Source: an uncultured bacterium
GTDB taxonomy: Bacteria; Muiribacteriota; UBA6191
Assembly (NCBI GenBank): GCA_964503595.1
Contig: CAZDAM010000002.1
Location: 9,335-73,334, forward strand
Direction: 5' to 3'
Length of the DNA stretch: 64,000 bases
Position 1 is the first letter of the stretch; each line of letters opens with the position of its first letter. Below, one piece after another: positions 2,731 through 54,360 of this stretch. Both the position numbers and the translations under genes were made by a program. The notes beneath the pieces are model-generated. The model had not been told where the DNA came from and did no database searches. It was given only the letters and a program-made list of their open reading frames with translations.

Positions 2731-3732
2731 TTGAAAACCATTTTCAAAATGTGCGCAGAAGTATTATTTCCAAATCTAGAAAAAGCCGATCGTCGCCTCC
2801 TGGAGCAGTTCATGGAACTCCTCACTCAAAGCGGCCACTCTCTGACTGAAACCCAGCTCACCATTGCCAAATCTCTTTTGAGACTGAAGCACCATACCGA
2901 GATTGCTCTGGCCCTTCAGGCAGTTGAGCAGAATACCCAGGCATCTCAGCAGGAAGTCGAAACCGTTCTTAAGATTCTGAAGGAATACGGAATTCTGGAA
3001 GTCAAATCTGTCGAAGGCCGCCAGACGATTGAACACAACCATCCGGATCGCAGACATTTTCATATGGTCTGCCTGAAAACCGGGCAGATCGAAGAATTCA
3101 CCTCAGAAATTCTGGAAGAAGTCCTGCATGAAACTGGTGCCCGCCACGGGTTTGTTCCGGTTTTCTCGGATATCGTCCTCTACGGGATCAAGGATGAAAT
3201 CATCCAGTCCGGACAAACCGGCTTCTCCCTGGTTCAGGCTGTCCAGAATCAGGGAGTTCAGATTCTGAGTTTTCCTGATGATGAACCTGAATTTCTTGAA
3301 AACGCAGCTAAAATCGGCCTTCAGGCCGGCTCTCATCTGGAAGTTCTGCATCAGGTGGAATCCACGGGAGAAATCCTTTGCCGCTTTCAGACTCACCGAC
3401 TGGTGATTCCGAAAAAAAAGGCCGAAAAAATCCTGATTCGGGCATTGAATGCCGAAGAAACCCGAACCCTTCGAACCTCTTTGAAGGAAGTGGAAAAAGT
3501 CTGGCCCAGCCTTGAAGATCTGAAAAACGGAGAAGAGGCCCGCATTGTCAGAATCCGTCCAGGCTCCCCCATTCAACGACGCCTGATGGAAATGGGGTTT
3601 GTTGCTGGAGCCAGCATCAAACGCTTAAGAATCGCTCCTTTGGGAGATCCGATTGAATTCAGCCTCAGGGGAGCTCATGTCAGCCTCAGACGAGTTGAAG
3701 CCCGCGATGTATTTGTGGAGCGCCAAGCATGA
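2731..3732 (+). CDS. feoA: FeoA-domain protein with ~250-aa N-terminal extension
   Basis: C-terminal ~75 aa (ARIVRIRPGSPIQRRLMEMGFVAGASIKRLRIAPLGDPIEFSLRGAHVSLRRVEARDVFV) match the FeoA SH3-like domain; stop overlaps feoB start (ATGA). Confidence 0.7.
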   Translation: MKTIFKMCAEVLFPNLEKADRRLLEQFMELLTQSGHSLTETQLTIAKSLLRLKHHTEIALALQAVEQNTQASQQEVETVLKILKEYGILEVKSVEGRQTIEHNHPDRRHFHMVCLKTGQIEEFTSEILEEVLHETGARHGFVPVFSDIVLYGIKDEIIQSGQTGFSLVQAVQNQGVQILSFPDDEPEFLENAAKIGLQAGSHLEVLHQVESTGEILCRFQTHRLVIPKKKAEKILIRALNAEETRTLRTSLKEVEKVWPSLEDLKNGEEARIVRIRPGSPIQRRLMEMGFVAGASIKRLRIAPLGDPIEFSLRGAHVSLRRVEARDVFVERQA

Positions 3733-10692: not shown

Positions 10693-12975
10693 TTGGCTAT
10701 GGCAAACGATCTGGCATTATCCACTGGTCTTGTGTCCGGTATTGACTCTGGAGCGCTGGTTGAAGCTCTGACCATCCGGCAGCGGGAAACCATCAAGATT
10801 CAGGAAAGAAAACAGCATGAGCTGACTATTTCCAAGGAAGAATACCAAAGCATTCACTCGGCCCTGTCTTCACTCGAAGAAGCCGCTGTCAATGTATCTT
10901 TTGAATCCACCTTCTCCCGCAAAACCGCAAAAGTCGGCGATGAGGATCTTTTAGGGGCCACTGCCAACACTTCTGCTGAGGCTGCCAATTATCAGCTCAG
11001 TATCAGCCAGCTCGCGACCAGGCACCGGGTTGCCTCGGACATTCAATCCAGCATGACCTCCCCCCTTCTTTCTGAAGACGCTACCATCCAGCTCAACGGA
11101 GTCAGCCTCACGGTTTCTGCCGGGGCTAATCTGAATGATCTGAAAACCGGGATCAATAGCCTCAGAAGCCAGACGGGAGTTTCTGCCGAAATCATTGACA
11201 AACGTCTGATCCTGTCAAGCGTGGATACCGGTACAGAGAACTCCATGGAGATTATGGATGCTGATGGAGAGTTGCTTCAGAGCATCGGAATCCTGAATGA
11301 CCCCAGCAGCTCCGGTTTTGGAGAAGCCAATGCCAAAGGCCAGGCCCTCAGGTCCGTTACCATTGATGACTGGCGTTTTGCTCCCGGAACCTTCAATATC
11401 AACGGAGCCGAATTCACACTTGGAGGCGGAGAGACTTTCAATGATCTGGCCGATATGATCAACAATTCCGGCGTTGAAGGACTGACAGCAGAAGGAGTCG
11501 GAACCAGAATCCTTATTTACAGTGACGGACAGCCTCTTAACCTGCAGGATGTTGAAGGGAATACCACCCGAATCCTTCAGGATGTGCATTATGAGGAATC
11601 CGATTCTCTTGGCGCACTCAACCTGAATGGAAAATCCCTGTTCATAAATGGCCAGCAAATTGATTTCACTACCGAAACAACAGCCGAAGAAGTCATGGAC
11701 CGGATCAATGCCAAAGGCATTTCCGGAGTCAAGGCCACAGTCGCTCCTGACTCCAGCCGTCTGAGGATTTACTCGGAACCCAACATCAACCTCAATATCT
11801 CCGGGACCGCTGCCGCTGATTTTGGTGCCTTCACCTCAAGAATACCTTCCGATCCTTCCTTTCAGTGGGATTATTTCAATGATGTGGATGAAACCATCAA
11901 CATCAACGGGGAAGACGTGGTCATTCCCGCCTACAGCAGCATGACCCAGATCTACAGTGCCATCAATGCAGTTTCCGGTGACTCCGGTGTGACGGCCTCC
12001 ATTGTCGATGGCACCGAATTGAACTTCAATTCCTCCGACACCATTGTCATCGGTGATGTTTCCGGAAGTTTTGCCGAAAGAACAGGTCTTCTTTCCAGTT
12101 CCTTCAAAAATGAGTTAAAAACCCCACAGGATGCTATTTTCACCATCAATGGAGTTCAGGCTACACGCTCCTCCAACATCATCACCGATGTGGTTGAAAA
12201 CCTGACTCTGGAACTCAAATCTACCGGAAGCAGCACCCTGAATATCCAGAACGATTCCGATACTGCTCGTACTGCGATTGAAAACTTCATTGAGCGCTAC
12301 AACGCCGCAATTGAACTGATTGATGAAAAAGTCCGGGCAAAAAAAGACTACAACCTCAAATATCTGGCCGAAGAAGAAAGAGAAAATCTGGATGCCGAAG
12401 CCCTTGCCGAAAAAGAGGACGAACTCAGAAAACAGGTTCTGGCAGGAGACCCCCTGCTTCAGAGAGCCTACAACACTTTGAGGCAGTTCTCTTATATGCG
12501 GGTTGAAGGCCCAGATGGCATTAATTCTCTTTCCAAAATGGGAATCTCCACCGGCGCTATCGGCTCCAATCCAGCTGAAACACGGATCGGAAAACTTCAG
12601 ATTGCAGATGAATCCAAGTTCAAGGCTGCTCTGGAAAACAATCTGGATCAGGTGAAAACCTTCTTTACCCGAACCGATGAAAACAACCCCAAGGGACAGG
12701 GAATTGGCGAACGTCTGAAAGTTGAAATCCGCCGCTTTACATCTTTCAGCGGCCTTTTGACCCAAAAAGCCGGAAGACCCGGCCAGGCTGTTTCAAACAG
12801 TCTGATTGATAAAGAAATTGCGGGTCTTACTCTAGATATCTTGAACAAGAACCGCTCTCTGCTAAAATATCAGGAAAGCTTATTGCTCACATTTCAGAAC
12901 ATGGAGTCTTCCTTGCAGACGTTGCAGAATCAATCCAACGCCATTGCCCAGGCAGGATCCACTGGCGGTTTCTAA
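10693..12975 (+). CDS. fliD: Flagellar filament cap protein FliD (hook-associated protein 2)
   Basis: N-terminus LSTGLVSGIDSGALVEALTIRQRETIKIQERKQ and C-terminal coiled coil LLTFQNMESSLQTLQNQSNAIAQAG are characteristic of FliD; 760 aa. Confidence 0.85.
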   Translation: MAMANDLALSTGLVSGIDSGALVEALTIRQRETIKIQERKQHELTISKEEYQSIHSALSSLEEAAVNVSFESTFSRKTAKVGDEDLLGATANTSAEAANYQLSISQLATRHRVASDIQSSMTSPLLSEDATIQLNGVSLTVSAGANLNDLKTGINSLRSQTGVSAEIIDKRLILSSVDTGTENSMEIMDADGELLQSIGILNDPSSSGFGEANAKGQALRSVTIDDWRFAPGTFNINGAEFTLGGGETFNDLADMINNSGVEGLTAEGVGTRILIYSDGQPLNLQDVEGNTTRILQDVHYEESDSLGALNLNGKSLFINGQQIDFTTETTAEEVMDRINAKGISGVKATVAPDSSRLRIYSEPNINLNISGTAAADFGAFTSRIPSDPSFQWDYFNDVDETININGEDVVIPAYSSMTQIYSAINAVSGDSGVTASIVDGTELNFNSSDTIVIGDVSGSFAERTGLLSSSFKNELKTPQDAIFTINGVQATRSSNIITDVVENLTLELKSTGSSTLNIQNDSDTARTAIENFIERYNAAIELIDEKVRAKKDYNLKYLAEEERENLDAEALAEKEDELRKQVLAGDPLLQRAYNTLRQFSYMRVEGPDGINSLSKMGISTGAIGSNPAETRIGKLQIADESKFKAALENNLDQVKTFFTRTDENNPKGQGIGERLKVEIRRFTSFSGLLTQKAGRPGQAVSNSLIDKEIAGLTLDILNKNRSLLKYQESLLLTFQNMESSLQTLQNQSNAIAQAGSTGGF

Positions 12976-12978
12976 TTC

Positions 12979-13596
12979 ATGCAGATACATCTCAATGGGA
13001 AACAGGTCGAAGTTGAAACTCAGGAACTACAGGGTTTTGGCCAGTTGATTCAAAAAATTGAAAAACAGATTCTGGAGCCAGGCGGCAGTGTCATTACCGC
13101 CCTGCACTTAAATGGTCGTGAACTGGATGCTCAGGGAGAAGCCGATTATTCCACCTTTCCTCTGGATCGGGTAGAATCTCTTGAGATTCGGGCCAGCAAT
13201 AAACAGGAATTGGCTCTACAAGCCCTTGGCGATGCCGTTCACATTCTTCCCGAACTCTCTTCCGTTGTGGATGAATGTCTGAAAAAGTTTGACGAGCTGT
13301 CCGAAAACGCCGGCATGCAGATTTTTGTCACGGTTGCGGATGGCCTCAGCTGGCTTTCCACCGTTTCTCAAGGAGCCGAAGTCATCTTTCATCCGAAGAT
13401 TCAGAATTCCGGCATGGAAAACTCTGCTTTTCTGGTCGCAAGCCGAAAGCTGCAGAATATTGCCCGCGAACTTCTGAATGCCCAGCAGCAGAGCGACTAC
13501 ACCACATTTCGGGATTTGTTGGAATATGAATTAAAACCGACCCTGAATGAAATTGCCGAAGGTATCCCTGAATTTTGCCAAAGCGTTCAGGCCTGA
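12979..13596 (+). CDS. Hypothetical protein in the flagellar locus (205 aa)
   Basis: ORF tightly packed between fliD and the maf-like gene; no recognisable motif. Confidence 0.45.
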   Translation: MQIHLNGKQVEVETQELQGFGQLIQKIEKQILEPGGSVITALHLNGRELDAQGEADYSTFPLDRVESLEIRASNKQELALQALGDAVHILPELSSVVDECLKKFDELSENAGMQIFVTVADGLSWLSTVSQGAEVIFHPKIQNSGMENSAFLVASRKLQNIARELLNAQQQSDYTTFRDLLEYELKPTLNEIAEGIPEFCQSVQA

Positions 13597-13608
13597 TAAT
13601 CTGATTCC

Positions 13609-15528
13609 ATGTCCGATCCCTATCTGTTTCTGAAGGAAGTTGCCCCTCCACTTTACCAGACTCTGGTCTTTCGGGCTGATAAAGAAGAACTTCTGGATGC
13701 GGTTGAAGGCTTTATCAGCAAGGAAGGCAAAACCAATCTGCGCTTTATCCTGGGTGGACGGAATCTTACAGTTCATTCTTCCTACAATCCGGAAAAAGAA
13801 GCCGAAAAAATCCTGAGCCGCTATGAAAACAACCCCCATAAGCTCACTGTTTGTCTGGGGGTCGGAATCGGTTACCACGTCGATGCCTTTCTGAAGGCCT
13901 ACCCGGATCGTCAACTCGTGATCCTGGAGCCAAGCTATAAAACTCTCCGACAGGCCATGAAACTGCGGGACTTCGAAACCTATTTCAGAAACCCCCGAAT
14001 CACCTTTATCATCACCCCGAATCCTGATGAACTCGCTGACTTTCTGGCTTCCCAGTACAACTTCAACCAGCATTCAGGGGTCCAGTTCATCGAGCCTCCG
14101 GTTTATGCCCGCTGGTTCAATGATGTCTTCAATGCCGTCAAAAAAAGGTTTCTGGAGCATCTGGCCAAGTTCACCGCCAATATGGCCACAATCATGGAAG
14201 CGGATGATGATTTCATCATCAACTGCGTGAACAACGTAAAACACCTGGGGAAATTCCCCTGGGCTGCCCAGCTTTTTGGTCGTTTCCCCGGCATTCCCGC
14301 CATCATTATCAGTGCCGGCCCCTCCCTTCACCTTCATCTGGAAAAACTCAGGGAACTCAAAAACAAGGCCTTTCTGATTGCCGTCGATACGGCTTATCCG
14401 ATTCTTTTGAAAAACGGAATCAATCCCCATTTCGTCTGCACAGCCGATCCCAATGATGTCAATTTCATGCATCTCAAGGGTCTTGATGTCAGCAAAACCT
14501 TTCTGGTTGTTGAGCCCATGACCTGGCATGAAACCCTTGATATGGAGGGAGCGCGGGCTTTTATCTGCAACTTCAATGGATATTATTCCTCGTATTTTTC
14601 CAAATTCTCAGCCTTCCCCAAGCCTCTTCTATCCTGGGGTTCGATTGCAACAACCTGCTTTGATCTGGCCCGCCAGATGGACTGTGGCCCAATTATCTTC
14701 GTGGGTCAGGATCTGGCCTATTCCGACATGCTCACCCACTGCCCAGGTTCCCGCTACGATGAACAGTATTACGCCCAGGTCGAAGCCTGCCCGAATCTTG
14801 AGCTTTATACTTCCTATGAAACATTTCACCTGCAAAGAATCCTGGCAAGACCAGTTGTCAGCCACTTGGACATCCATGGCAATCAGGTTTTGACCCAGAA
14901 CAATCTGATTCTCTATGCCCAGTGGCTGGAAGAACAGTTTTCCAAAACCCGACAGCCAGTGATCAATGCCACAGAACGAGGGATCTTGAGGAAAAACTGC
15001 CGTCAGATGAGCTTTGACAAGGTCTGTCGGGATTATCTGACTCAGGACAGGAATCTGAGTGACGCACTGGAAGTCATCTACAATGAGCCCCGTCGCTTTC
15101 TCTTTCCTGAGCTTCTTGCCGATGTCAGCCGGAAAATCGAAAGTCTGGGCAATGCCGAGGCCCTGGCCACATCCCGCAAGGAGGACAGCAAAGCACTGCT
15201 TGATGCCGCAAAAAACAATTCCGAAAAGGAAATGCGGCAGATGTTCAATGAGCTTTCCAAAGGCATCCATTGCGGGATTGAAGACCCCGTTCTTCTGGGA
15301 TGGCTCGAGCACAAAAACCAGAAAGCCGAAGTTTATTTCCAGCGTTCTTTGGGGAAGCTTGTCGGAGCCCGGTTCAGTCAGGATCTGATCGTGAAAATGG
15401 CTGAACTCTACACCGGATACTACGGTTCTCGACTCAAGTCCTTCCAGGAATTGCAGCATTTTCTGAAAATAGCCGCCAAAGGATGTCAGGAGGGTCTGGA
15501 GATCCAGCCCCTTGATGTCTTAGAATAA
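13609..15528 (+). CDS. Motility-accessory-factor (Maf)-like protein with central DUF115/MptE-like domain (putative flagellin glycosylation factor)
   Basis: 639 aa; central region IIISAGPSLHLHLEKL...AFLIAVDTAYPILLKNGINPHFVCTADP matches the DUF115 fold of Campylobacter/Helicobacter Maf proteins; size and position between fliD and fliS fit. Confidence 0.6.
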   Translation: MSDPYLFLKEVAPPLYQTLVFRADKEELLDAVEGFISKEGKTNLRFILGGRNLTVHSSYNPEKEAEKILSRYENNPHKLTVCLGVGIGYHVDAFLKAYPDRQLVILEPSYKTLRQAMKLRDFETYFRNPRITFIITPNPDELADFLASQYNFNQHSGVQFIEPPVYARWFNDVFNAVKKRFLEHLAKFTANMATIMEADDDFIINCVNNVKHLGKFPWAAQLFGRFPGIPAIIISAGPSLHLHLEKLRELKNKAFLIAVDTAYPILLKNGINPHFVCTADPNDVNFMHLKGLDVSKTFLVVEPMTWHETLDMEGARAFICNFNGYYSSYFSKFSAFPKPLLSWGSIATTCFDLARQMDCGPIIFVGQDLAYSDMLTHCPGSRYDEQYYAQVEACPNLELYTSYETFHLQRILARPVVSHLDIHGNQVLTQNNLILYAQWLEEQFSKTRQPVINATERGILRKNCRQMSFDKVCRDYLTQDRNLSDALEVIYNEPRRFLFPELLADVSRKIESLGNAEALATSRKEDSKALLDAAKNNSEKEMRQMFNELSKGIHCGIEDPVLLGWLEHKNQKAEVYFQRSLGKLVGARFSQDLIVKMAELYTGYYGSRLKSFQELQHFLKIAAKGCQEGLEIQPLDVLE

Positions 15529-34024: not shown

Positions 34025-35044
34025 TCAGGTAATCAGTTCGTCTTCGCCACCTCGGGAGATCACCAGATCTCCGGCCTCTTCCAGGGTACGAACCACATTG
34101 ACGATTTTCTGCTGAGCCTCTTCCACGTCCCTGATTCTGACCGGACCCATAAAGGCCATGTCGTCCTGAAGCATCTGCGCCGCACGTTTGGACATGTTTT
34201 TGAGGAATTTCGATTTGACGTCGTCGGAGGAACCCTTGAGAGCAAGCCCCAGATCCTTGGTGTCGATTTCCTTGAGAACCCTCTGAATTCCGCGGTCGTC
34301 GAGCATGTTGAGATCCTCGAAAACGAACATGCGCTTTTTGATTTCCTCGGCAAGATCCGGATTCTGGATTTCCAGGTTGTCAATAATGGTTTTCTCAGTA
34401 CCACGATCGACGATATTAATGATTTCCACCAGAGAGTCCACCCCCCCCACCGTGGTGTAATCGGTAGACGATACCGTAGAGAGCTTCTTTTCCAGAATGG
34501 CTTCCACATCACGGACGATCTCAGGAGAAGTTCTGTCCATAAGAGCCAAACGCTTGGCTGCCTCCACCTGAATTTCCGAAGGGAAGCTGGAAAGAATCGC
34601 CGCCGCCTTGTCTGGTTGCAGATAGGCCAGAATGAGAGCAATCGTCTGGGGATGCTCACCGGAAATGAAGTTCTGAAGATGTTCCGGATCCGCTGCACGA
34701 ATCAAATCAAAAGGCTGGACCTCAAGAGAGGATGTCAATTTGGAAATGATGCTCTCCGCCATGTCATCACCCACTGCTGAACGCAGGAAATCACGGGCTG
34801 CGGAAACACCTCCCTGGGTGATGAACTCCTGAGCTTTGAGCATATTATAGAACTCTTCAACCACCAGATCCCGATCCTCGGGTTCCACCTTGCGAATCTT
34901 GGCAATTTCTATGGCAACGGATTCCATCTCTTCTTCGGTCAAAAGCTTCACTACATCCCGTGACAGATCCGGCCCCAGAAACATCAGAAAGATGGCCACT
35001 TTGATGCGGGCCGTAAGTTCTTTCTTTTTCGTAGGACTTGCCAT
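34025..35044 (-). CDS. fliG: Flagellar motor switch protein FliG (stand-alone copy)
   Basis: 339 aa; FliG N, middle and C-domain signatures (ILAYLQPDKAAAILSSFPSEIQVEAAKRLALMD; MFVFEDL; DDMAFMGPVRIRDVEEAQQKIVNVVRTLEEAG). Confidence 0.9.
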   Translation of the reverse strand: MASPTKKKELTARIKVAIFLMFLGPDLSRDVVKLLTEEEMESVAIEIAKIRKVEPEDRDLVVEEFYNMLKAQEFITQGGVSAARDFLRSAVGDDMAESIISKLTSSLEVQPFDLIRAADPEHLQNFISGEHPQTIALILAYLQPDKAAAILSSFPSEIQVEAAKRLALMDRTSPEIVRDVEAILEKKLSTVSSTDYTTVGGVDSLVEIINIVDRGTEKTIIDNLEIQNPDLAEEIKKRMFVFEDLNMLDDRGIQRVLKEIDTKDLGLALKGSSDDVKSKFLKNMSKRAAQMLQDDMAFMGPVRIRDVEEAQQKIVNVVRTLEEAGDLVISRGGEDELIT

Positions 35045-37090: not shown

Positions 37091-38095
37091 TTACTCCGTA
37101 CGATCTTTACCCGTACGCAGGATGATTTCATCCATGGCTTCTTCAGCGAGAGCCCGGAGCTCGCCATCTCCGGCTTCTCTTAACCTCAGAAGGGTTTTAA
37201 TTGCCTTGCGATCACCCGCAAATTTCAGAATCATCACGGATTCCACCTGAACCACCTGATTTAAAGTCGAGCGGATTTCCTTGAGGAGAGGCCCTTGAGC
37301 ATCGAGCCCGAATTTGACCAAGGCATCCCTGACATTACGCCGGATGACAAAAGAAGGATCCGATAAAAGAGAAATCAGAATGGAAATATGAGCTGTATTT
37401 CTCAATTCCCCCATGGAATAGATGGCCCCCACTCTTTCATGATCCTGGCGGGAATATACCATTTCTTCAAGGGTCCGGCGAGCCGACTCATCTTCTCCAT
37501 GCCTAGACAGAACCATCGCTACATTGGCCCTCATCCTCACATTGGAGTCCTCCAGATAGGGTTTGAGAATCGGCGCCACCATGGAAGTGGAATAGAACCC
37601 AAGGCCCTCAACGGCATTGGCTCTGACACGGGAATCTTGATCCTCAAGATAGGCTGCAATGATGGGAATCAGTCTTTCTTCCTGAAAGGAACCCAGATGC
37701 TTCACCAGAGTGGCCCGCACCTTGGGATGGGTTTCCGAATCCAGATACTGGACAAAGGCTTCCCCTGCCTTCTGGCAGTTTCTCTGCCCCAGACCTTCGA
37801 CCGCCCGGATCCGAACCCATTCATCCGAATCACCAAGAGCAAACAGAAGGGCATCGTCCACATTGGGAGCATCCAGCTTCCTAATGCCAACAACAGCCGC
37901 ATAGCGCACTGAAGGATGCTCATCATCAAGGGCTTCCCGCAGAAGAACCGCTTTTTCTACATCGTGACAGGAAGAGGCCGAAACCTGCTTGACCCTGACA
38001 AAACGCTGTTCCCAGGAGCTGTCAGCCAGCTCATCGTCAAAATCATCGCTGTCCAGAAAATCTTCGAAATCACCGCGCATAATACCTCTGTCCAA
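37091..38095 (-). CDS. PBS-lyase HEAT-like repeat protein
   Basis: Repeated motifs SVRYAAVVGIRKL, DEWVRIRAVEGLGQ, KVRATLVKHLG, RVRANAVEGLG, NVRMRANVAMVL typical of HEAT_2/PBS-lyase repeats. Confidence 0.7.
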   Translation of the reverse strand: MDRGIMRGDFEDFLDSDDFDDELADSSWEQRFVRVKQVSASSCHDVEKAVLLREALDDEHPSVRYAAVVGIRKLDAPNVDDALLFALGDSDEWVRIRAVEGLGQRNCQKAGEAFVQYLDSETHPKVRATLVKHLGSFQEERLIPIIAAYLEDQDSRVRANAVEGLGFYSTSMVAPILKPYLEDSNVRMRANVAMVLSRHGEDESARRTLEEMVYSRQDHERVGAIYSMGELRNTAHISILISLLSDPSFVIRRNVRDALVKFGLDAQGPLLKEIRSTLNQVVQVESVMILKFAGDRKAIKTLLRLREAGDGELRALAEEAMDEIILRTGKDRTE

Positions 38096-38260: not shown

Positions 38261-39970
38261 TCAGTAATGCATCAGGGACTGTACCCCGTAATCTTTCAGG
38301 CGCTCACGACCTTCCAGAAAATCGAGCTCAATCAGAAACATCATTCCGGCCACCTTGCCCCCGGACTTTTCAATCAGAAAAGCCGTTGCCTCTGCTGTGC
38401 CTCCGGTTGCCAGAACATCATCAATGACCAGAACGGACTGGCTCTTGACGATTCCTTCCTGAATCTCAAGCGTAGCTTCTCCGTACTCAAGAGCATAGGA
38501 ACGGCTTAGAACCGGTCCTGGCAACTTCCCGGCCTTGCGAATGGGAACAAACCCAACCCTGAGGGCCTGGGCCAAAGCCGCCCCCAGAATAAACCCGCGG
38601 GATTCCACTCCGGCAATCAGATCAACCTGGCGGTCCTTGATCAGCCCCTGAAAAAGCCGGATGACATCAGAAAGACCATTGGGAGCCGCCAGTAAAGGAG
38701 CGATATCCTTGAAAACCACCCCGGGTTTCGGAAAATCCGGAACATCCCTCACGAGTTCCTTCAGACGCCCGAGGGCGGTGCGAACCCGTTTGGACTGCAA
38801 ATCGGTAAAGACCTTGCGGGTAAAATCCTGAACCCACTCTTCACTGATCTGCTCTTTCTGCTGCTTGATTTCCCCAATCCGGCTTAAAGCCACCATGGCG
38901 TTTTTCTTGACGTATTCCGAGGAATCCCGCAAAGCATCCACCAGATCCAGAGTGGAATCCTCAACACCGATTTCTCCAAGTGCCTGGGCTGCTGAAGCCC
39001 TGACCGACCAGAAGGAATCATGCTTGAGAATATGGGTGATCTGATCGAGCATTTCCTTGGCCTGCAAGTCCCCCAGAACCTTCACTGCCCAGTAGCGGAT
39101 ATCCGTATTTTTACTTTTTAAGGCACGCGAGAGTTTTTCAATACAGGAATCCCCAAGTTCCCACAGGGTTTCAGCCGCCTGCTTCCTGACAAACCAGTTG
39201 GCATCCCCAAGCATCTGAATCAGAGGATCAATGATTTCCGGGGTATCCATGGAGCGCATGCCCTGAATGATGGATTGCTTCTGATCTACCGGAAGCTCCT
39301 CATCCATGAGCTTCACCACCAAAGCCTTGCAGGCCTTGCTGCCACCGACTTCACTTAGAACCTGGATGGCCCAGAACTCCCGATCATGATGCCCGCAGTT
39401 CAAAACTCCAATTACTTCATCCACGCAAAGCTGCCCAAGCTGAATCAGACCGCTGGCAGCAGATTTTCGAATTGTCCACTGAGTGTCATCCAGACAGTGA
39501 ATCAATGGCTTGACAGCTTCCCGGACCCCGGTTCTTCCCAAGGCCGAAATCGCACAGAGCTTCGCCGGGAGTTCCTCCCCTTCAATCAGAGAAACCAGGG
39601 TTTCTACCGAGCGGCTCCCGAACTGGGAAATCACTTCGCTGATCCAGAACTGAATATCGTCATCATTGCTGCGGGCCATATCCAGAAGAGTATCCAGATA
39701 ATGGCTGCCCAATCCGGCAAGGACTCTGGCCGCATTGCGCCTGACACCCCAGGAGGAATGCTTCAGGGCTCCAATCAGATGGGGAAGAGCACGCTCTCCA
39801 TATCCTTCCAGCACCTTGACTGCTTCCTGGGAAACCGCTTCATTATCATCGCCTAACGCTTCGATCAGAAGCGAGATTGATTCAGCTCCCGGTTTATCCT
39901 TGAGCGATGCCACGGTTTCACGGCGCACCCGGTAATCCACATCCTGTAAAGCTTCCAGAATTGCTTTCAT
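38261..39970 (-). CDS. apt: Fusion protein: N-terminal PBS-lyase HEAT repeats (~390 aa) + C-terminal adenine phosphoribosyltransferase
   Basis: C-terminal 170 aa match APRT (FKDIAPLLAAPNGL, VDLIAGVESRGFILGAALA, PRPP motif VLVIDDVLATGGTAEA); N-terminal RRETVASLKD, WGVRRNAARVLAGLG etc. are HEAT repeats; start ATG overlaps the dnaN stop (ATGA). Confidence 0.8.
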   Translation of the reverse strand: MKAILEALQDVDYRVRRETVASLKDKPGAESISLLIEALGDDNEAVSQEAVKVLEGYGERALPHLIGALKHSSWGVRRNAARVLAGLGSHYLDTLLDMARSNDDDIQFWISEVISQFGSRSVETLVSLIEGEELPAKLCAISALGRTGVREAVKPLIHCLDDTQWTIRKSAASGLIQLGQLCVDEVIGVLNCGHHDREFWAIQVLSEVGGSKACKALVVKLMDEELPVDQKQSIIQGMRSMDTPEIIDPLIQMLGDANWFVRKQAAETLWELGDSCIEKLSRALKSKNTDIRYWAVKVLGDLQAKEMLDQITHILKHDSFWSVRASAAQALGEIGVEDSTLDLVDALRDSSEYVKKNAMVALSRIGEIKQQKEQISEEWVQDFTRKVFTDLQSKRVRTALGRLKELVRDVPDFPKPGVVFKDIAPLLAAPNGLSDVIRLFQGLIKDRQVDLIAGVESRGFILGAALAQALRVGFVPIRKAGKLPGPVLSRSYALEYGEATLEIQEGIVKSQSVLVIDDVLATGGTAEATAFLIEKSGGKVAGMMFLIELDFLEGRERLKDYGVQSLMHY

Positions 39971-49185: not shown

Positions 49186-50220
49186 TTACCAGGCCACATG
49201 CTTTCGACCTCTTAGAATATCCCAGATCGCCAAGAGCCAGGCCTGTATCAGATACATACCGCGAGAAGGACCGATGAGTCTAAGAAGGACCAGAAGCGTC
49301 CCAATCAAGAACACTGCCGGGTGGCCCGTCTGAAACGCTATCAGAAATGACAGCAGCAGAAAAACCGGAGACAACCATCTCAGAATCTTACGAAAGATCA
49401 GGGAAAACACTGTATTGAAAGCTCGGGCTTCCAAAAGAATCGGAATATACCGCAGGACGCAGCGGAATCCGCGAATCAGCGTCCGGGTACGCCTTCGGGC
49501 AAGATCACGGTGAGCCAAAGACTCGAAAACCTTGACTTCAGGCAGGGCTATCGAAGGCTTTCCGCGACAAACCAGCTGGAGGCACAGCTCCATATCGGAA
49601 GGGCAGTCTGCCTGCAAGGGCTGAAAGTCAGCAACTCTCAAACACATCAGAGCCCCGGACAGGCCAGCATGAAAACCGCGGGCATTTTCTTCTCTTCTCA
49701 GACGATTTTCCCATTTCATATAACGGATTTCAAAAGCTTCAGCTTCTTCATATTCGACTTCAGCGGCAACGAGTCCAACCTCTTCTCCAAGGGCCCGGGA
49801 AAGTGTCCGCAGATCTTCCGGCTGAAAATGGGTGTCCGCATCTGCCAGAAACAAAAGACCGGCCTGGATTTCACTTTGAGAAGCCATCACGTTGAGCAAG
49901 GCACTTTTGCCCACCCGGACTTCAAAGCAAAAAACCCGGACCCGCTCTGGGCAGGTCAGCCCGGAAAGCCAGCCTTTATCAGAAAAGCCGTCCAGGCCAA
50001 TCTCAAGCCTTATTTCAGGGAATTTCTCCAGAGTCCGATTCCAGACATCAAGCCATTCCTTACGGGGAATTTGATTCAGACAAATACGTAAAACCCCTTC
50101 GGTACGGTCTTCCAGAGCACCCACAAAACCTTTTTTAGGAAAAAGAAGCAGACAGGCGGGATAAAAACACCAGGGCCACAAAGTTAGCAGGATAAGCCCC
50201 AGCCATATCCATTCAGACAT
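49186..50220 (-). CDS. Membrane-anchored family-2 glycosyltransferase-like protein
   Basis: N- and C-terminal TM helices; central LFLADADTHF (DxD-like) region; weak family assignment. Confidence 0.45.
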   Translation of the reverse strand: MSEWIWLGLILLTLWPWCFYPACLLLFPKKGFVGALEDRTEGVLRICLNQIPRKEWLDVWNRTLEKFPEIRLEIGLDGFSDKGWLSGLTCPERVRVFCFEVRVGKSALLNVMASQSEIQAGLLFLADADTHFQPEDLRTLSRALGEEVGLVAAEVEYEEAEAFEIRYMKWENRLRREENARGFHAGLSGALMCLRVADFQPLQADCPSDMELCLQLVCRGKPSIALPEVKVFESLAHRDLARRRTRTLIRGFRCVLRYIPILLEARAFNTVFSLIFRKILRWLSPVFLLLSFLIAFQTGHPAVFLIGTLLVLLRLIGPSRGMYLIQAWLLAIWDILRGRKHVAW

Positions 50221-51031
50221 TCAGGTACTCCAGGCAGGGAGATTTTTCAAGAAACCCGGCCTTCAGAAGTTCCCGGGCAAAAACGGCCAGTCCCAGCCAG
50301 TCTCTGGCTTCCGGAAAATAGTGCAGTTTGCGACCGAGAAAATCGACAAAATCCCGGTAACTCAGATGTCGCGAATCCTTTTCCCAAAGTTCCTTGAGAT
50401 GCATCTGACCCCAGGCTGCCGAGGATGTCAGTGCACTCAGAGCTTTCAGGATTTCCTGTGGGAATTTCTGGTAGGAGTCCTTACGAATCACCCATAGGGC
50501 AAAGACAAAGGGGAGTCCGGTTACAGATTTCCAAAGAGTCGCCAGGTCATGACAGATCACCTGCTCCTCCCCAAGCATGGTCTGGGCATGATCCCCGATC
50601 AAAACTGCGCCGTCATAAGAGGAAAAAATCTGGCTTACGGTCTCGGTCTGCAAATCCTCTTGCTCCTGATAGATAAACTCTGTATCCACACCAAGATGGG
50701 ACAAAAGAAGCTGGGCCAGATGAATCGATGTTTCACTGGCTCCACTGAGAAGAATCCGGCCGCCTGAAATCTCTGAAAGCCGTTTTTTCGTGACCAGAAA
50801 GACCGAACCGGCTTCTTCTCTGGCCGCGATCAGAAGATGGGGCCAGATGAGATACTGATCAGAGTTTCTTAAGGCCTCAAAGGAGGAAACTGCCGAGATA
50901 TCAAGTTCACCGCCAGCAATCGCCCGGTTCAGCCGCGAGGGGACTTCAAACACCAGCAAAGCATTTTCCGGGTGAAAACGGGCATTGGGCACAACGCCAT
51001 TGGTAAACGGAAGCATTCCGATTCTAAGCAT
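50213..51031 (-). CDS. mqnA: MqnA/MqnD-family menaquinone (futalosine pathway) biosynthesis protein
   Basis: MLRIGMLPFTNGVVPNARF...GGELDISAVSSFEAL pattern of MqnA-like periplasmic-binding-fold enzymes. Confidence 0.55.
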   Translation of the reverse strand: MLRIGMLPFTNGVVPNARFHPENALLVFEVPSRLNRAIAGGELDISAVSSFEALRNSDQYLIWPHLLIAAREEAGSVFLVTKKRLSEISGGRILLSGASETSIHLAQLLLSHLGVDTEFIYQEQEDLQTETVSQIFSSYDGAVLIGDHAQTMLGEEQVICHDLATLWKSVTGLPFVFALWVIRKDSYQKFPQEILKALSALTSSAAWGQMHLKELWEKDSRHLSYRDFVDFLGRKLHYFPEARDWLGLAVFARELLKAGFLEKSPCLEYLNV

Positions 51032-51091
51032 AAGGGAATTCTACCACGCCCCAATTCCGACCCGGTGTATTCATGGTGTATCCTTGCCCTC

Positions 51092-53776
51092 ATGAACAAT
51101 TTAGACAAACTCCTGCAAAAACCTCCCCAGGAAATCGTGAGCCAGATCCTGAACGCTCTGGTTCAGGCCGAATGGAATGAAAGACGCCAGACCGCCCTGA
51201 GTCTGGCCCAGATGGGGCCTGAAGGCCTGGATATACTGATGCAGGCTACCGAGAATGCCAAAGAAACCGAACTGGTTCAAACTGGCTGCTTCTGGGCAGA
51301 TTTTGTCTTCTTTCAGCTCAAAAGCGGCCAGGAGGTCTGTAGCCTGCGGCGTATCTACGAAGCCTCGGATGCCAGCATCCGCAAACGGACTCTTGAACGT
51401 CTGATCGATGCCCCGATTCTCTCCGAATCCCAGCCTTTCCTGTATCTAGCTCTGGGGGATGAATCCTGGGATGTGCGGGAACGGGCCTGCCAGGGATTCC
51501 TGAAACTGGGCCGGGAAGTCGTCCCCTTTCTGGAAGAGCGCTTTCAGCACGGAAACTCCCATCAGCGATACTGGACTTTCCGCATTCTCGCCCGCCTGCT
51601 GGGCCCGGAAGCCATCAAGAGCTTTTCCAACTTCTTCAAACTGGATCCAAAAAACGAGGAACTGCAGATTTTTGCCGTCTCCAATCTGGGAGAAATCGAT
51701 GAGCCCCGGATTGTCCGCACCCTGCTCAATTTTTTGCGGACAGAATCCTTTTTCATCCATGAAGAAGTTCACCGAAGCCTGAAAAAACTGGTCCGCACCC
51801 AGTTTGAGGAAATGATTCAGATTCTGGAACAGGAACCGGATGTGCGTACTGCCGAGACTCTCTTCAGGGTTCTGGAATCCGCTCTGAATGACACCATTCT
51901 GGAGCGGGCAAAGACTCTGCTTCAGAGTGAACACTATCCAACCCGCTATATGGCTATCTCCCATCTTGGAACCTACCCCTCCCAGCTCTGTGCCCGCCTC
52001 CTTCTGAAATGCTTTGAAGACCCCAAATGGGGCCTGAGACGCCAGGCCATGGAGAAGCTCTGCCAACTGGGCACCTATGCCATCCCCGCTCTTCTGGAAG
52101 GACTGGAAAGCAAAAGCGGCAATCAGATTTTCTGGTCTTTGAAAAGCCTCATCCAGCTTCGTGAGCCTTCCACCCTTCCGGCAATTGCATCCATCCTGAG
52201 GGAAAGCCCCAGTAAGGAGCACCGCATGATGGCTCTGGAAGCCGCTGCCATCCTTCAAAGTGAGGATTCGCCGGAAGTTCTGCTGGAAGCTTTTGACAAT
52301 TCCATGTGGGAAGTCCGCCAGAAAGCCAGCGAACTTCTGCCCCTCCAGAAATTCCATCCTCTGGTTTCTCTTCTGTCCGGGGCAATCAGTGACAGCAACA
52401 ATATCCGCTTCTGGTCATTGCGAACCCTCGAAAGCATCGGGGCCAAAGGGGCCGAGTCCCTGCTGCATCAAATCCAGACCCAGACCGACAACAACCCCTG
52501 GAACTGCATCCGCCAGCTAAGACTGGCCAATCAGGGAGTCCTGAAGCGAGAACTGGAAAAAAGTCACCCGATTCTTTCCCAGATTGAACTGACCATCCAT
52601 GATGATAAAGCCTCTGCCCCCGCATCTGGTGGACCTCAGCAGATCGTCATTCAGCAGGCTTTGGGAATGGAAAGTCTGTATCACGTCAAACTTCCCGAAG
52701 CTGAAGGCCTGAACGCCTATCCCATCTCCGTCGATGAGATGTTTGAACAGGCCTGCAATCTTTCCGCTTCTGACATCCACCTCAAAATCAGCCATCCTCC
52801 AATCCTCAGGGTTCAGAACAAACTGATCACCATGCGCCACCCTGCCCTGAGTACGGGAAACCTGGTTCTGATTGTGCGTCAGCTTCTCTCTCAGCAACTG
52901 GTCCGCTACCTGGAAACCAATCACCAGGTGGACAGCTCCTACGAGTCCGACAAAGGCCGCCGTCTGCGCCTCAATATCTTCAAAACCCGCCTGGGCTATG
53001 AAATTGCCGGGCGTTTCATTACTGAAAAACTGCCTACGTTTGAATCCCTGAACCTGCCTGTGAACATCATGCAGAAACTGGCCAACATGGAAACAGGACT
53101 GGTCATTCTGACCGGCCCGACCGGTTCCGGCAAGACTTCCACGCTCGCCGCCATGATTCACTACATCAACCTGCTCTATCACAAGCACATCATCTGCATT
53201 GAAGATCCGATTGAGTACATCCATAACTCCAAGCTTTCCTATATTTCACAAAGGGAGATTCTAAGAGATGTTCCTTCCTTCCCCATGGGAATCCGGGCAA
53301 CTCTTCGCGAGGATCCCGATGTGATTCTGGTCGGAGAGCTTCGCGATCAGCAAAGCGTGGAAACAGCCATGACCCTGGCCGGTACCGGTCACCTGGTTCT
53401 GACAACCCTGCATGCGCCGACTTCCACAACCGCCGTCGAACAGCTGATGGACTTTTTTGCCGAGGAACAGCAGGCCCATATCCGAAAGCAGGTTGCCTTC
53501 AACTTGAGAGCCATCATTTCCCAAAGGCTTCTGAGGCATAAAAACGGGAAGGAACGGGTCCCTGCCTGTGAAGTTCTGATTGCAACCCCTGCCGTCAAAA
53601 ACATCATCCGGGATGGAAAAACCGAGCAGCTTCAGACCATGATTGAAACAAGCAAGAAAGAGGGCATGATTGCCCTGGATCAGTCCCTGAAGAACCTTCT
53701 TGATATGGGCAGAGTCACCTTCGAAGAAGCCTGGCCCCACGTCATTGATCAGAAGACATTTCGCGGGGGGAATTAA
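51092..53776 (+). CDS. pilT: Fusion protein: N-terminal ~520-aa HEAT/PBS-lyase repeat region + C-terminal PilT-type type IV pilus retraction ATPase
   Basis: C-terminus GLVILTGPTGSGKTSTLAAMI (Walker A), DVILVGELRD (Walker B/Asp box), His-box TTLHAPTSTTAVEQL, and the PilT-characteristic AIISQRLL; N-terminal repeats (DVRERACQGFLKLG, GLRRQAMEKLCQLG, WEVRQKASELL) are HEAT-like; start placed at ATG 51092, divergent from mqnA. Confidence 0.8.
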   Translation: MNNLDKLLQKPPQEIVSQILNALVQAEWNERRQTALSLAQMGPEGLDILMQATENAKETELVQTGCFWADFVFFQLKSGQEVCSLRRIYEASDASIRKRTLERLIDAPILSESQPFLYLALGDESWDVRERACQGFLKLGREVVPFLEERFQHGNSHQRYWTFRILARLLGPEAIKSFSNFFKLDPKNEELQIFAVSNLGEIDEPRIVRTLLNFLRTESFFIHEEVHRSLKKLVRTQFEEMIQILEQEPDVRTAETLFRVLESALNDTILERAKTLLQSEHYPTRYMAISHLGTYPSQLCARLLLKCFEDPKWGLRRQAMEKLCQLGTYAIPALLEGLESKSGNQIFWSLKSLIQLREPSTLPAIASILRESPSKEHRMMALEAAAILQSEDSPEVLLEAFDNSMWEVRQKASELLPLQKFHPLVSLLSGAISDSNNIRFWSLRTLESIGAKGAESLLHQIQTQTDNNPWNCIRQLRLANQGVLKRELEKSHPILSQIELTIHDDKASAPASGGPQQIVIQQALGMESLYHVKLPEAEGLNAYPISVDEMFEQACNLSASDIHLKISHPPILRVQNKLITMRHPALSTGNLVLIVRQLLSQQLVRYLETNHQVDSSYESDKGRRLRLNIFKTRLGYEIAGRFITEKLPTFESLNLPVNIMQKLANMETGLVILTGPTGSGKTSTLAAMIHYINLLYHKHIICIEDPIEYIHNSKLSYISQREILRDVPSFPMGIRATLREDPDVILVGELRDQQSVETAMTLAGTGHLVLTTLHAPTSTTAVEQLMDFFAEEQQAHIRKQVAFNLRAIISQRLLRHKNGKERVPACEVLIATPAVKNIIRDGKTEQLQTMIETSKKEGMIALDQSLKNLLDMGRVTFEEAWPHVIDQKTFRGGN

Positions 53777-54257
53777 GCCGGGAACTGACAAGATCCCGCG
53801 AGGCCTTCAGGAGAGAATCCGCCACATCGGAGAGCAGATCGCGGCCGCTGGCCCATTCCGGATGCCCAAAAGCCTGGAGCATGACGGAATCCTCTTTCGT
53901 TTCTCCGTTCCGGCAGGCCCGAAGAGTAAAGGTCGCCTCCGCAAAGGATACCTGAAACGGGCCATCCTGACCCATGCGGCCAAAGGCTGTGTCCACTCCA
54001 TTCTGCATGGACTGAAGCCAGACTTTACCCTCTGCCCTGACCCAGGAGCCTAACTCCTTTCCACATGCCGGTGGAGTCTCCACAATCAGAAATACTCCAC
54101 TCTGCCTGGCCCTGCTGTCCAGAACCTCCCGAAACAGGGCTGGCGATTCCATCAGAATTGTCTGGAGTTGAAGTTCTTCTCCCAGCCAGACAGATGACTG
54201 GCGGGCTGAAAGCAGAGAGGTCAGACTAAAAAGCAGAAGAGTTTTTGTAAGTCGCAT
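53742..54257 (-). CDS. Secreted hypothetical protein
   Basis: Signal peptide MRLTKTLLLFSLTSLLSA; 3' end overlaps the convergent pilT-fusion stop by ~35 nt. Confidence 0.35.
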   Translation of the reverse strand: MRLTKTLLLFSLTSLLSARQSSVWLGEELQLQTILMESPALFREVLDSRARQSGVFLIVETPPACGKELGSWVRAEGKVWLQSMQNGVDTAFGRMGQDGPFQVSFAEATFTLRACRNGETKEDSVMLQAFGHPEWASGRDLLSDVADSLLKASRDLVSSRLNSPREMSSDQ

Positions 54258-54307
54258 ACCAGAAATTTCGGTCCCGGCCATGCCCCTCTGTTCCTTTTCA
54301 CCACAAA

Positions 54308-54360
54308 GAAAAAATGCCGGTTGGGCAAGTCTGACAAGACTTGCCCAACCGGCATTTTCT
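54308..54360 (-). terminator. Rho-independent terminator downstream of secG (perfect 16-bp stem GCCGGTTGGGCAAGTC/GACTTGCCCAACCGGC flanked by A/T runs on both sides)
   Basis: Read directly from sequence. Confidence 0.7.

What the first reader, a model, noticed from the sequence alone, without database searches (positions are those of the whole stretch)
51092..53776. PilT-type retraction ATPase fused to a ~520-aa N-terminal HEAT-repeat domain
The C-terminal ~380 aa carry Walker A, the Asp box, the His box and the PilT-specific AIISQRLL motif. The N-terminal extension consists of HEAT/PBS-lyase-like repeats instead of the usual ~100-aa PilT N-domain.

No pilB, pilC, pilM-Q or pilin genes are nearby. 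A HEAT scaffold fused to a hexameric secretion/retraction ATPase could be a novel regulatory or localisation arrangement, or the motor of a non-pilus system.
Basis: partly seen in the sequence, partly recalled or inferred. Interest (0 to 1): 0.6.

Follow-up and report, generated by a model that had tools for sequence, protein, structure and literature searches.

The report
PilT pilus motor with HEAT-repeat arm
This is a real, conserved gene in which a complete, apparently active PilT-type pilus-retraction ATPase carries an extra ~500-residue HEAT-repeat arm on a floppy linker; the design is shared by several uncultivated bacterial phyla, is already in databases under a routine PilT label, and has not been studied.

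Summary
Window 51092-53776 (+) is one uninterrupted 894-aa ORF.

- **Residues 1-505:** about 16 HEAT hairpins.
- **Residues 506-545:** a poorly conserved linker that is predicted to be disordered.
- **Residues 546-884:** a complete PilT, containing both its own N-domain and the ATPase domain. All catalytic motifs are intact, and a variant of the PilT signature AIRNLIRE is present (AVKNIIRD).

The HEAT arm is added in front of a whole PilT; it does not replace the PilT N-domain.

The fusion is not an assembly artefact. Eight of nine related species genomes, plus many metagenome contigs, carry the same ~900-aa ORF in conserved synteny. These genomes are labelled Cloacimonadota or UBP17.

More distant ~890-950-aa HEAT+PilT proteins occur in Wallbacteria, Riflebacteria and marine MAGs. 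Two of these clades have degenerate ATPase motifs.

The most likely mechanism, which is inferred, is a type IV pilus retraction motor with a flexibly tethered protein-binding scaffold for recruitment or gating. Whether these genomes encode pili could not be tested. No literature on the fusion was found.

Verdict: a new variant of a known kind, of moderate interest.

The parts
51092..53776 (+). Complete CDS of the HEAT-PilT fusion (894 aa plus stop)
   Evidence: The ORF is uninterrupted. It is identical to the recorded product P0001. Full-length homologs of 50-61% identity exist.
51092..52606 (+). HEAT-repeat alpha-solenoid, residues 1-505, with about 32 helices (about 16 hairpins). WxVR-type and FW-type repeats alternate.
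   Evidence: Pfam hits HEAT_2, HEAT and HEAT_PBS. AF2 gives pLDDT of about 95 and an all-helical fold. Invariant Trp, Arg, Phe and Asn columns are seen across 9 homologs. Mean pairwise identity is 0.49.
52607..52726 (+). Inter-domain linker, residues 506-545
   Evidence: Mean pairwise identity is 0.18, with variable length. pLDDT is below 50 for residues 507-529 in both models.
52727..53026 (+). PilT N-terminal domain, residues 546-645
   Evidence: It aligns to the N-domain of solved PilT structures (5fl3 from residue 11). TIGR01420 matches from model position 2. The mixed alpha/beta fold has pLDDT above 90.
53027..53773 (+). PilT C-terminal ATPase domain, residues 646-894
   Evidence: T2SSE and TIGR01420 hits. 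Mean pairwise identity in the family is 0.76. Foldseek top hits are PilT, PilT4 and PilU structures.
53114..53140 (+). Walker A, GPTGSGKTS (residues 675-683)
   Evidence: G675, G680 and K681 are invariant in 69 aligned PilT-family sequences.
53201..53218 (+). Asp box, EDPIEY (residues 704-709)
   Evidence: E704, D705, P706 and E708 are invariant.
53318..53347 (+). Walker B, DVILVGELRD (residues 743-752)
   Evidence: D743, G748, E749, R751 and D752 are invariant.
53384..53416 (+). His box, TGHLVLTTLHA (residues 765-775)
   Evidence: H767 and H774 are invariant.
53591..53620 (+). Variant of the PilT signature AIRNLIRE: AVKNIIRDGK (residues 834-843)
   Evidence: Canonical PilTs in the same alignment read AIRNLIRENK and SVANLIRNEK.
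50213..51031 (-). Divergent neighbour, an MqnA-like menaquinone biosynthesis protein. It is syntenic with the fusion in all related loci and is context only.
   Evidence: Pfam VitK2_biosynth at 152.9 bits. Synteny.
53742..54281 (-). Convergent neighbour, a 179-aa protein with no family match and a hydrophobic N-terminus. Its 3' end overlaps the fusion gene by 35 nt. It is context only.
   Evidence: No Pfam or NCBIfam hit. A same-sized gene sits at this position in relatives.

Best explanation
The gene encodes a catalytically competent PilT-family hexameric ATPase. This is the kind of motor that depolymerises type IVa pili. Its N-terminus is joined, through a flexible linker of about 40 residues, to a HEAT-repeat solenoid of about 500 residues.

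**Shown:**
- The ORF is intact.
- The PilT module is complete (N-domain and ATPase domain) with all catalytic motifs.
- Both halves are under purifying selection across a phylum-level lineage.
- The HEAT arm and the PilT module are each confidently folded, but their mutual orientation is not defined.

**Inferred:**
- Six HEAT arms would surround each PilT hexamer and act as tethered protein-binding scaffolds.
- These arms would recruit the motor to, or gate its engagement with, the pilus base or a polar landmark.
- This would be a cis equivalent of the N1 domains of PilB/GspE, or of trans-acting solenoid partners such as the TPR protein SgmX, which acts on PilB in Myxococcus.
For: **The PilT module is complete and looks active.**
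- TIGR01420 scores 383.5 bits against a cutoff of 319.1, over model positions 2-336 of 343.
- It aligns end to end with solved PilT structures, and scores higher against PilT (238-259 bits) than against P. aeruginosa PilU chain 9n32 (210 bits).
- Walker A, Asp box, Walker B, His box and the AIRNLIRE-like motif are all intact. The catalytic residues are invariant in a 69-sequence alignment with canonical PilTs.
- It is 43-46% identical to canonical PilTs of many phyla.

**The fusion is real and conserved.**
- Nine protein clusters of about 900 aa share 50-61% identity.
- Eight of nine GTDB species genomes carry an intact ~900-aa ORF with Walker A near residue 685.
- Synteny is conserved.

**Both halves are constrained, the linker is not.**
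- Mean pairwise identity is 0.49 for HEAT, 0.54 for the PilT N-domain and 0.76 for the ATPase domain. The linker is only 0.18.

**The structure model fits a tether.**
- AF2 with a deeper alignment gives pLDDT 92.4 but pTM only 0.57. Only residues 507-529 fall below 50.

**The whole architecture is older than this lineage.**
- Sixteen of the 149 best non-family hits to the HEAT profile are also 889-951-aa HEAT+PilT-like proteins. Many match the HEAT profile in one collinear stretch.
- The closest outside relative of this PilT module is the Wallbacteria fusion P0025, at 345-350 bits. The best canonical PilT scores 293-311 bits.

**A related HEAT protein sits next to a secretion ATPase.**
- A stand-alone collinear HEAT protein (P0061) lies 39 nt upstream of a GspE/PilB-like T2SSE ATPase on the same strand.

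**Known analogies.**
- Solenoid partners and polar targeting of T4P motors are described in PMC7519303, PMC7668184 and PMC2784877 (listed).
Against: - No type IV pilus gene (pilB, pilC, pilM-Q, pilins) was seen in the 64-kb window or within 10 kb of the gene in nine relatives. Whether these genomes encode pili at all could not be tested.
- No binding partner of the HEAT arm is known, and nothing shows localisation.
- HEAT arms are used promiscuously in this lineage. A HEAT plus adenine phosphoribosyltransferase fusion lies 11 kb away and is also conserved. The arm may therefore serve a general purpose rather than a pilus-specific one.
- Other stand-alone HEAT relatives sit in unrelated contexts.
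- A pTM of 0.57 is only indirect evidence for flexibility. No inter-domain error map was available.
Confidence: 0.55

Rival explanations
1. The ATPase has been repurposed. HEAT-PilT would drive or regulate a machine other than a type IV pilus, with the HEAT arm supplying the new docking specificity.
For: - No pilus genes were seen in the window or in the flanks of nine relatives.
- Related fusions include two clades with degenerate Walker B and His boxes, and in one of them a degenerate Walker A. The architecture can therefore persist without normal catalysis.
- Stand-alone HEAT relatives lie beside a GspE/PilB-like ATPase, a ClpB-like AAA+ gene and flagellar export genes.
- The PilT module is no closer than 43-46% identity to any canonical PilT found.
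Against: - The module passes the curated PilT/PilU threshold.
- It keeps every catalytic motif and the AIRNLIRE-like signature.
- Identity of 43-46% to canonical PilTs of several other phyla (Bacillota, Armatimonadota, Fervidibacterota) is what one search shows for its best matches, so it does not mark this module as unusually divergent.
- pilT is normally unlinked from other pil genes (PMC6668835).
Confidence: 0.2
2. The HEAT arm is an autoinhibitory or signal-responsive lid. It would dock on the PilT ring and keep the motor off until a partner or ligand releases it.
For: - The HEAT domain has many invariant surface-type residues (Arg, Asn, Glu, Gln) in addition to core residues.
- Its length is tightly conserved, at 889-960 aa in all fusions.
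- N-terminal regulatory domains are the rule in the sister ATPases PilB, MshE and GspE (established knowledge; the review PMC11656802 is listed).
Against: - AF2 gives no confidently fixed orientation between the two modules (pTM 0.57 despite pLDDT 92).
- The linker is unconserved and predicted to be disordered.
- No ligand-binding domain was detected.
Confidence: 0.15
3. The fusion is an artefact: two adjacent genes joined by a sequencing, assembly or gene-calling error.
For: - One relative, UBA6191 (L012, a 3.8-kb contig), has the ORF broken in the HEAT region.
- One distant relative has separate HEAT and ATPase genes.
Against: - The ORF is continuous in the window.
- It is continuous in 8 of 9 species genomes.
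- It is continuous in 9 protein clusters from independent NCBI, JGI, ENA and Logan assemblies.
- It is continuous in 16 more distant clusters of the same length.
- The separate ATPase in L017 is of a different subfamily, GspE/PilB-like with a zinc motif.
Confidence: 0.02

Closest known systems
PilT, the type IVa pilus retraction ATPase (TIGR01420 PilT/PilU family; structures 5fl3, 6ojx, 3jvu, 2ewv)
   Same: - The complete two-domain PilT core is present (N-domain plus ATPase domain).
- Walker A, Asp box, Walker B, His box and an AIRNLIRE-like motif are all present.
- It scores above the curated threshold.
- There is no C-terminal tetracysteine zinc motif.
- It is 43-46% identical to canonical PilTs.
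   Different: - It carries an extra ~545 N-terminal residues: about 16 HEAT hairpins plus a linker. The solved PilTs listed are 356-390 residues long.
- AIRNLIRE reads AVKNIIRD.
- Function, hexamer formation and a link to a pilus are untested.
PilB, GspE, MshE and Thermus PilF: assembly ATPases with N-terminal accessory domains (N1/MshEN/GSPII)
   Same: The design logic is the same. A hexameric T2SSE-family motor carries N-terminal, flexibly linked accessory domains that bind platform proteins or signals. Thermus PilF is of similar overall size (913-residue chain 6f8l).
   Different: - The core here is PilT-type, not PilB/GspE-type. PilB and GspE models score far below their cutoffs.
- No MshEN/T2SSE_N domain was found.
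- The accessory domain is a HEAT solenoid, which I did not find described for any of these ATPases.
Trans-acting solenoid partners of T4P motors, for example the TPR protein SgmX, which acts on PilB in Myxococcus xanthus
   Same: An alpha-solenoid repeat protein is functionally coupled to a T4P motor ATPase for polar recruitment or stimulation (PMC7519303, PMC7668184).
   Different: - SgmX is a separate protein. It is built of TPR rather than HEAT repeats, and it acts on the extension motor PilB.
- Here the solenoid is covalently fused to the retraction-type motor.
- The functional parallel is an inference.
Distant HEAT+PilT-like proteins in Candidatus Wallbacteria (MBI4865792.1), Candidatus Riflebacteria (MBI4861769.1) and marine MAGs
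   Same: - They share the overall length (889-951 aa).
- They share a collinear HEAT domain followed by a PilT-like module.
- The Wallbacteria protein is the nearest outside relative of this PilT module.
   Different: - Overall identity is only 25-33%.
- Genomic contexts differ.
- Two clades have lost the Walker B Glu and the His box. The Riflebacteria-like clade has also lost the Asp-box Asp, and three of its five members have Arg in place of the Walker A Lys.
- All carry only automatic annotation.

Membership tests
PilT/PilU family type IVa pilus ATPase (TIGR01420) | Score at or above the curated family cutoff, over the full model | tested here: met
   383.5 bits against a cutoff of 319.1. 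Model positions 2-336 of 343 match residues 547-882.
PilT/PilU family type IVa pilus ATPase (TIGR01420) | Intact Walker A, Asp box, Walker B and His box | tested here: met
   GPTGSGKTS, EDPIEY, DVILVGELRD and TGHLVLTTLHA are present. The catalytic residues are invariant in a 69-sequence alignment with canonical PilTs.
PilT/PilU family type IVa pilus ATPase (TIGR01420) | PilT signature AIRNLIRE near the C-terminus (distinguishes PilT from PilB/GspE; from my own knowledge of the family) | tested here: met
   It is present in variant form, AVKNIIRD, at residues 834-841. A, N, I and R are kept. N837, I839 and R840 are at least 90% conserved across the 69 sequences.
PilT/PilU family type IVa pilus ATPase (TIGR01420) | Compact two-domain protein of about 345-400 aa with no additional N-terminal domain | tested here: not met
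   The protein is 894 aa, with about 545 extra N-terminal residues. The PilT core itself is complete.
PilT/PilU family type IVa pilus ATPase (TIGR01420) | Closer to PilT than to PilU | tested here: inconclusive
   PDB PilT chains score 238-259 bits. P. aeruginosa PilU (9n32) scores 210 bits. No phylogeny with a broad PilU sample was made.
PilT/PilU family type IVa pilus ATPase (TIGR01420) | Co-occurrence with a T4aP machine (PilB, PilC, PilD, PilM-Q, pilins) in the same genome | not tested
   Only the 64-kb window and 10-kb flanks in relatives could be read, and none of these genes was seen there.
PilT/PilU family type IVa pilus ATPase (TIGR01420) | Hexameric ATPase that powers pilus retraction | not testable with these tools
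   This needs biochemistry or genetics, and the organisms are uncultivated.
PilB/GspE/MshE-type assembly ATPases | N1/MshEN (PF05157) domain, C-terminal tetracysteine zinc motif, and family HMM scores above cutoff | tested here: not met
   There is no PF05157 hit at E<=1. GspE scores 119 against a cutoff of 630, and PilB scores 94.5 against 676. Residues 815-894 contain a single Cys (sequence).
HEAT repeat proteins (PF13646 HEAT_2, PF02985 HEAT, PF03130 HEAT_PBS) | Tandem helical-hairpin repeats scoring above the Pfam gathering thresholds and forming an alpha-solenoid | tested here: met
   HEAT_2 scores 113.5 bits (cutoff 27.7), HEAT 52.7 (23.5) and HEAT_PBS 34.4 (20.9). About 32 helices are modelled at pLDDT of about 95.

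The most novel reading that the evidence does not exclude
HEAT-PilT would be an ancient class of self-scaffolded secretion-type ATPases spanning several phyla (UBP17, Wallbacteria, Riflebacteria and marine lineages). The HEAT arm, rather than the pilus platform, would set what the motor acts on. The ATPase-degenerate clades would be regulators or adaptors derived from it. On this reading the family marks either a new mode of controlling pilus retraction or a PilT-derived motor for a machine that is not a pilus.
Probability: 0.2. Interest if true: 0.7.

Novelty: new variant of a known kind. Interest (0 to 1): 0.45.

Why it matters
PilT is regarded as the minimal member of the T2SSE motor family. 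It is also the strongest molecular motor known (PMC6668835).

How retraction motors are recruited to, and exchanged with, extension motors at the pilus base is an open question. So far it has been addressed only through trans-acting factors.

A conserved PilT with a built-in ~500-residue protein-binding arm would give a natural handle on that question. Relatives in several candidate phyla, and pseudo-ATPase derivatives, add to this. The partners of the arm should reveal what positions or gates the motor. The dead-ATPase clades offer a natural experiment on non-catalytic roles.

The practical limits are that all carriers are uncultivated, and that pilus genes in the same genomes have not yet been shown.

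Tried and rejected
- **Artefact hypothesis.** Rejected. The ORF is continuous in 8 of 9 species genomes and in many independent assemblies.
- **HEAT replacing the PilT N-domain.** Rejected by the TIGR01420 coverage and by PDB alignments from PilT residue 11 onward.
- **The nearby HEAT+PRTase gene as a ComF-like competence protein linking HEAT to DNA uptake.** Rejected. It is an adenine phosphoribosyltransferase (TIGR01090 195.7 bits, cutoff 185.85).
- **Search for pilus genes.** Pfam and NCBIfam scans of 40 window ORFs, and a prepilin-motif regex over 350 kb, found none. The one hit was a 32-aa ORF in L008, which is about the number expected by chance.
- **Extending the contig leftwards.** Failed, because the gene products I supplied were not on record. 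The right end shows carAB and BREX genes only.
- **First AF2 run.** With 9 sequences it modelled the ATPase domain poorly. It was superseded by the 69-sequence run.
- **Promoter and terminator scan.** Gave nothing above shuffled expectation for the fusion gene.
- **Literature.** Four searches found no description of a HEAT-PilT fusion.
- **Context of stand-alone HEAT relatives.** One of four sits beside a T2SSE ATPase. The others are in unrelated or uninformative contexts. This is suggestive only.
Full report
**1. What is in the sequence.**

Window 50972-53776 (+) is one open reading frame. The ATG at 51092 gives 894 aa. This is the product recorded for the same contig in public assemblies (P0001, 100% identity). 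It also leaves a 60-nt gap to the divergent mqnA-like gene, which starts at 51031.

Pfam finds HEAT_2 (113.5 bits, five stretches), HEAT and HEAT_PBS in the N-terminal half. It finds T2SSE at residues 545-862. NCBIfam places residues 547-882 on positions 2-336 of the 343-position PilT/PilU model TIGR01420, at 383.5 bits against a cutoff of 319.1. PilB, GspE, DotB, TadA and VirB11 models all score far below their cutoffs.

Sequence comparison with solved structures aligns residues 546-884 with residues 11-350 of the 368-residue Thermus PilT chain 5fl3. It aligns equally with Geobacter, Pseudomonas and Aquifex PilT. The C-terminal part is therefore a whole PilT, including its own N-domain.

The motif positions are as follows.

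| Motif | Residues |
|---|---|
| Walker A | 675-683 |
| Asp box | 704-709 |
| Walker B | 743-752 |
| His box | 765-775 |
| AIISQRLL | 807-814 |
| AVKNIIRDGK (variant of AIRNLIRE) | 834-843 |

**2. The fusion is real and conserved.**

A search of 5.8 billion proteins returned eight further clusters of 902-960 aa. They share 50-61% identity over the full length, and both halves carry many invariant columns.

A scan of one genome per GTDB species, using only the HEAT half as query, found nine species. Eight have an intact ~900-aa ORF with the Walker A motif near residue 685. The ninth, a 3.8-kb UBA contig, is frameshifted.

The record titles read Candidatus Cloacimonadota (3), bacterium UBP17_UBA6191, or unclassified. 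UBP17 is a GTDB phylum with 10 genomes (PMC11382960). Assigning the window's organism to UBP17 is an inference from this pattern and from shared synteny.

Gene order around the fusion is conserved at about 50% protein identity:
- HEAT-Apt, dnaN, an unknown gene, a FecR-like gene, a GT2 gene, and in most loci htrA and an unknown gene;
- mqnA-like, which is divergent from HEAT-PilT;
- HEAT-PilT itself;
- a convergent gene for a small protein of unknown function;
- secG, two unknown genes, STAS genes, an MBL gene and a NUDIX gene.

This is lineage-wide synteny that includes housekeeping genes. It does not point to a functional operon.

**3. Anatomy and constraint.**

Mean pairwise identity within the family differs sharply by region.

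| Region | Mean pairwise identity |
|---|---|
| HEAT arm | 0.49 |
| Linker (506-545) | 0.18 |
| PilT N-domain | 0.54 |
| ATPase domain | 0.76 |

A first AF2 model from nine sequences folded the HEAT arm well but the ATPase domain poorly. A second model, using 69 sequences that included canonical PilTs, gave mean pLDDT 92.4. Only residues 507-529 fell below 50, yet pTM was only 0.57.

I read this as two well-defined modules with no confidently fixed mutual orientation, that is, a tether. This reading is indirect, because no inter-domain error map is returned. Foldseek against the PDB returns PilT, PilT4 and PilU chains first.

**4. The architecture is wider than this lineage.**

An exhaustive HMM search with the HEAT profile collapsed the close family into one representative (844 bits). 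It also listed many ~900-aa proteins that match the profile in one or two collinear stretches. Generic HEAT proteins, by contrast, matched in 4-19 stretches.

Reading these sequences and scoring them with a PilT-module HMM shows that 16 of the 149 best non-family hits carry a PilT-like module. Fifteen of these are 889-951 aa long. The sixteenth is a 637-aa protein that ends within the module.

Source names include Candidatus Wallbacteria, Candidatus Riflebacteria and marine MAGs. All carry automatic labels such as 'PilT/PilU family type 4a pilus ATPase' or 'TadA'.

A motif table sorts the fifteen full-length fusions into three groups:
- Five representatives have intact catalytic motifs.
- One clade of five keeps Walker A but has lost the Walker B glutamate and both His-box histidines.
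- A Riflebacteria-like clade of five has lost the Asp-box Asp, the Walker B Glu and the His box. Three of its members also have Arg in place of the Walker A Lys.

The nearest outside relative of the window's PilT module is the Wallbacteria fusion, at 345-350 bits. The best canonical PilT among the top hits from the whole database scores 293-311 bits. This favours a shared origin of at least those fusions. A second intact group (P0124, P0044, P0127) is closer to canonical PilTs than to this family, so a single origin for all fusions is not established.

Genomic contexts of the distant fusions differ from this one. In the Wallbacteria locus a MshE/PilB-like gene lies 8 kb away.

**5. Evidence on what the HEAT arm does.**

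There is no direct evidence.

One suggestive observation comes from a stand-alone 555-aa HEAT protein that is collinear with this HEAT arm. It is followed 39 nt downstream, on the same strand, by a 434-aa T2SSE ATPase. That ATPase is of the GspE/PilB type and has a tetracysteine motif. This kind of solenoid is therefore associated with secretion-type ATPases both in cis and in trans.

Three other stand-alone relatives give no such support. One sits beside a ClpB-like AAA+ gene. One sits beside flagellar export genes, with a prepilin-type gene 6 kb away. One is on a contig too short to judge.

Within the window's own lineage, HEAT arms are also fused to adenine phosphoribosyltransferase (window 38261-39970, minus strand; TIGR01090 above cutoff). 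That fusion is conserved in relatives. A HEAT-only gene lies next to it. The arm may therefore be a general-purpose module of this lineage rather than a pilus-specific one.

**6. Pilus genes.**

None was found among 40 window ORFs scanned against Pfam or NCBIfam. None was found in the 10-kb flanks of relatives. A prepilin-motif scan of 350 kb also found none.

The window does carry flagellar genes: fliD, a maf-like gene and fliG.

The absence of nearby pilus genes carries little weight. T4aP genes are typically scattered, with pilT apart from the rest (PMC6668835). Whole genomes could not be searched with the tools and caps available, so the key question remains open.

**7. Interpretation.**

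Most likely (0.55), this is a working PilT-type retraction motor with six flexibly tethered HEAT scaffolds per hexamer. The scaffolds would bind a partner that positions or gates the motor. Known parallels are the N1 domains of PilB/GspE and solenoid partners such as SgmX.

The rivals are:
- a repurposed motor for a machine that is not a pilus (0.2);
- an autoinhibitory lid (0.15);
- an artefact (0.02, effectively refuted).

**8. Novelty and score.**

Members of the family are in public databases under routine PilT labels. Four full-text searches found no description of a HEAT-PilT fusion.

It is a new variant of a known kind: a known motor, a known repeat, and a combination that has not been studied. 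Points of interest are the phylum-spanning distribution and the pseudo-ATPase offshoots. A pilus specialist would find it noteworthy but not shocking, and the carriers are uncultivated. Interest is 0.45.

Noticed in passing
window 38261-39970 (-), with the adjacent gene at 37091-38095 (-): A 569-aa protein joins about eight HEAT repeats to a full adenine phosphoribosyltransferase (TIGR01090 195.7 bits, cutoff 185.85). It is conserved in relatives (L005 70% identity; L010, L011, L013). A 334-aa HEAT-only gene lies next to it. HEAT arms therefore seem to be fused to unrelated cytoplasmic enzymes in this lineage.
   Followed up: partly
L017 950-2617 (+) and 2656-3960 (+): A stand-alone 555-aa HEAT protein (P0061) is collinear with the HEAT arm of the fusion. 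It is followed 39 nt later by a 434-aa GspE/PilB-like ATPase with a CPSC...CPDC zinc motif. This is a two-gene counterpart of a HEAT plus secretion-ATPase pairing.
   Followed up: partly
proteins P0026, P0039, P0041, P0042, P0084 and P0068, P0074, P0113, P0121, P0148: Two clades of ~900-aa HEAT+PilT-like proteins have degenerate catalytic motifs. The Walker B Glu and the His box are lost in both. The Asp-box Asp is lost throughout the Riflebacteria-like clade, and the Walker A Lys is replaced by Arg in three of its five members. They are probably pseudo-ATPases.
   Followed up: partly
window 2731-3732 (+), upstream of feoB at 3729-6125 (+): A single ORF combines a FUR-family domain (residues 35-144) with two FeoA domains. 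It lies directly upstream of FeoB, which is an unusual regulator-transport accessory fusion.
   Followed up: no
window 53742-54281 (-): A 179-aa protein has a hydrophobic, signal-like N-terminus and no family match. It converges on the fusion gene and overlaps it by 35 nt. A gene of similar size holds this position in relatives.
   Followed up: partly
window 54312-54357 (-): A 20-bp hairpin followed by a T-run lies just downstream of secG. It is a strong intrinsic-terminator-like site separating secG from the 179-aa gene.
   Followed up: no
window 10693-15528 (+) and 34025-35044 (-): Flagellar genes are present: fliD, a Maf-like flagellin glycosylation gene and fliG. The organism is therefore probably flagellated. 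Many neighbouring ORFs of 300-750 aa have no Pfam match at all.
   Followed up: no
L016 16189-18793 (contig beyond the right end of the window): BrxL-like and BrxB genes (a BREX phage-defence system) and a DUF1016 gene lie just past carAB on the same 106.8-kb contig.
   Followed up: no
L015 1679-7433 (-): Two very large flagellin genes (893 and 904 aa) lie about 2.5 kb from a distant HEAT-PilT relative (P0168).
   Followed up: no
L012 290-3084: The UBA6191 (UBP17) copy of the fusion gene is split by a frameshift in the HEAT region. The contig is only 3.8 kb, so this is probably an assembly error rather than a true pseudogene.
   Followed up: partly
L008 near 17019 (-): A 32-aa ORF carries a good prepilin-like N-terminus (KKAGFSLVEMIVIV). 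About one such match is expected by chance in the DNA scanned.
   Followed up: no
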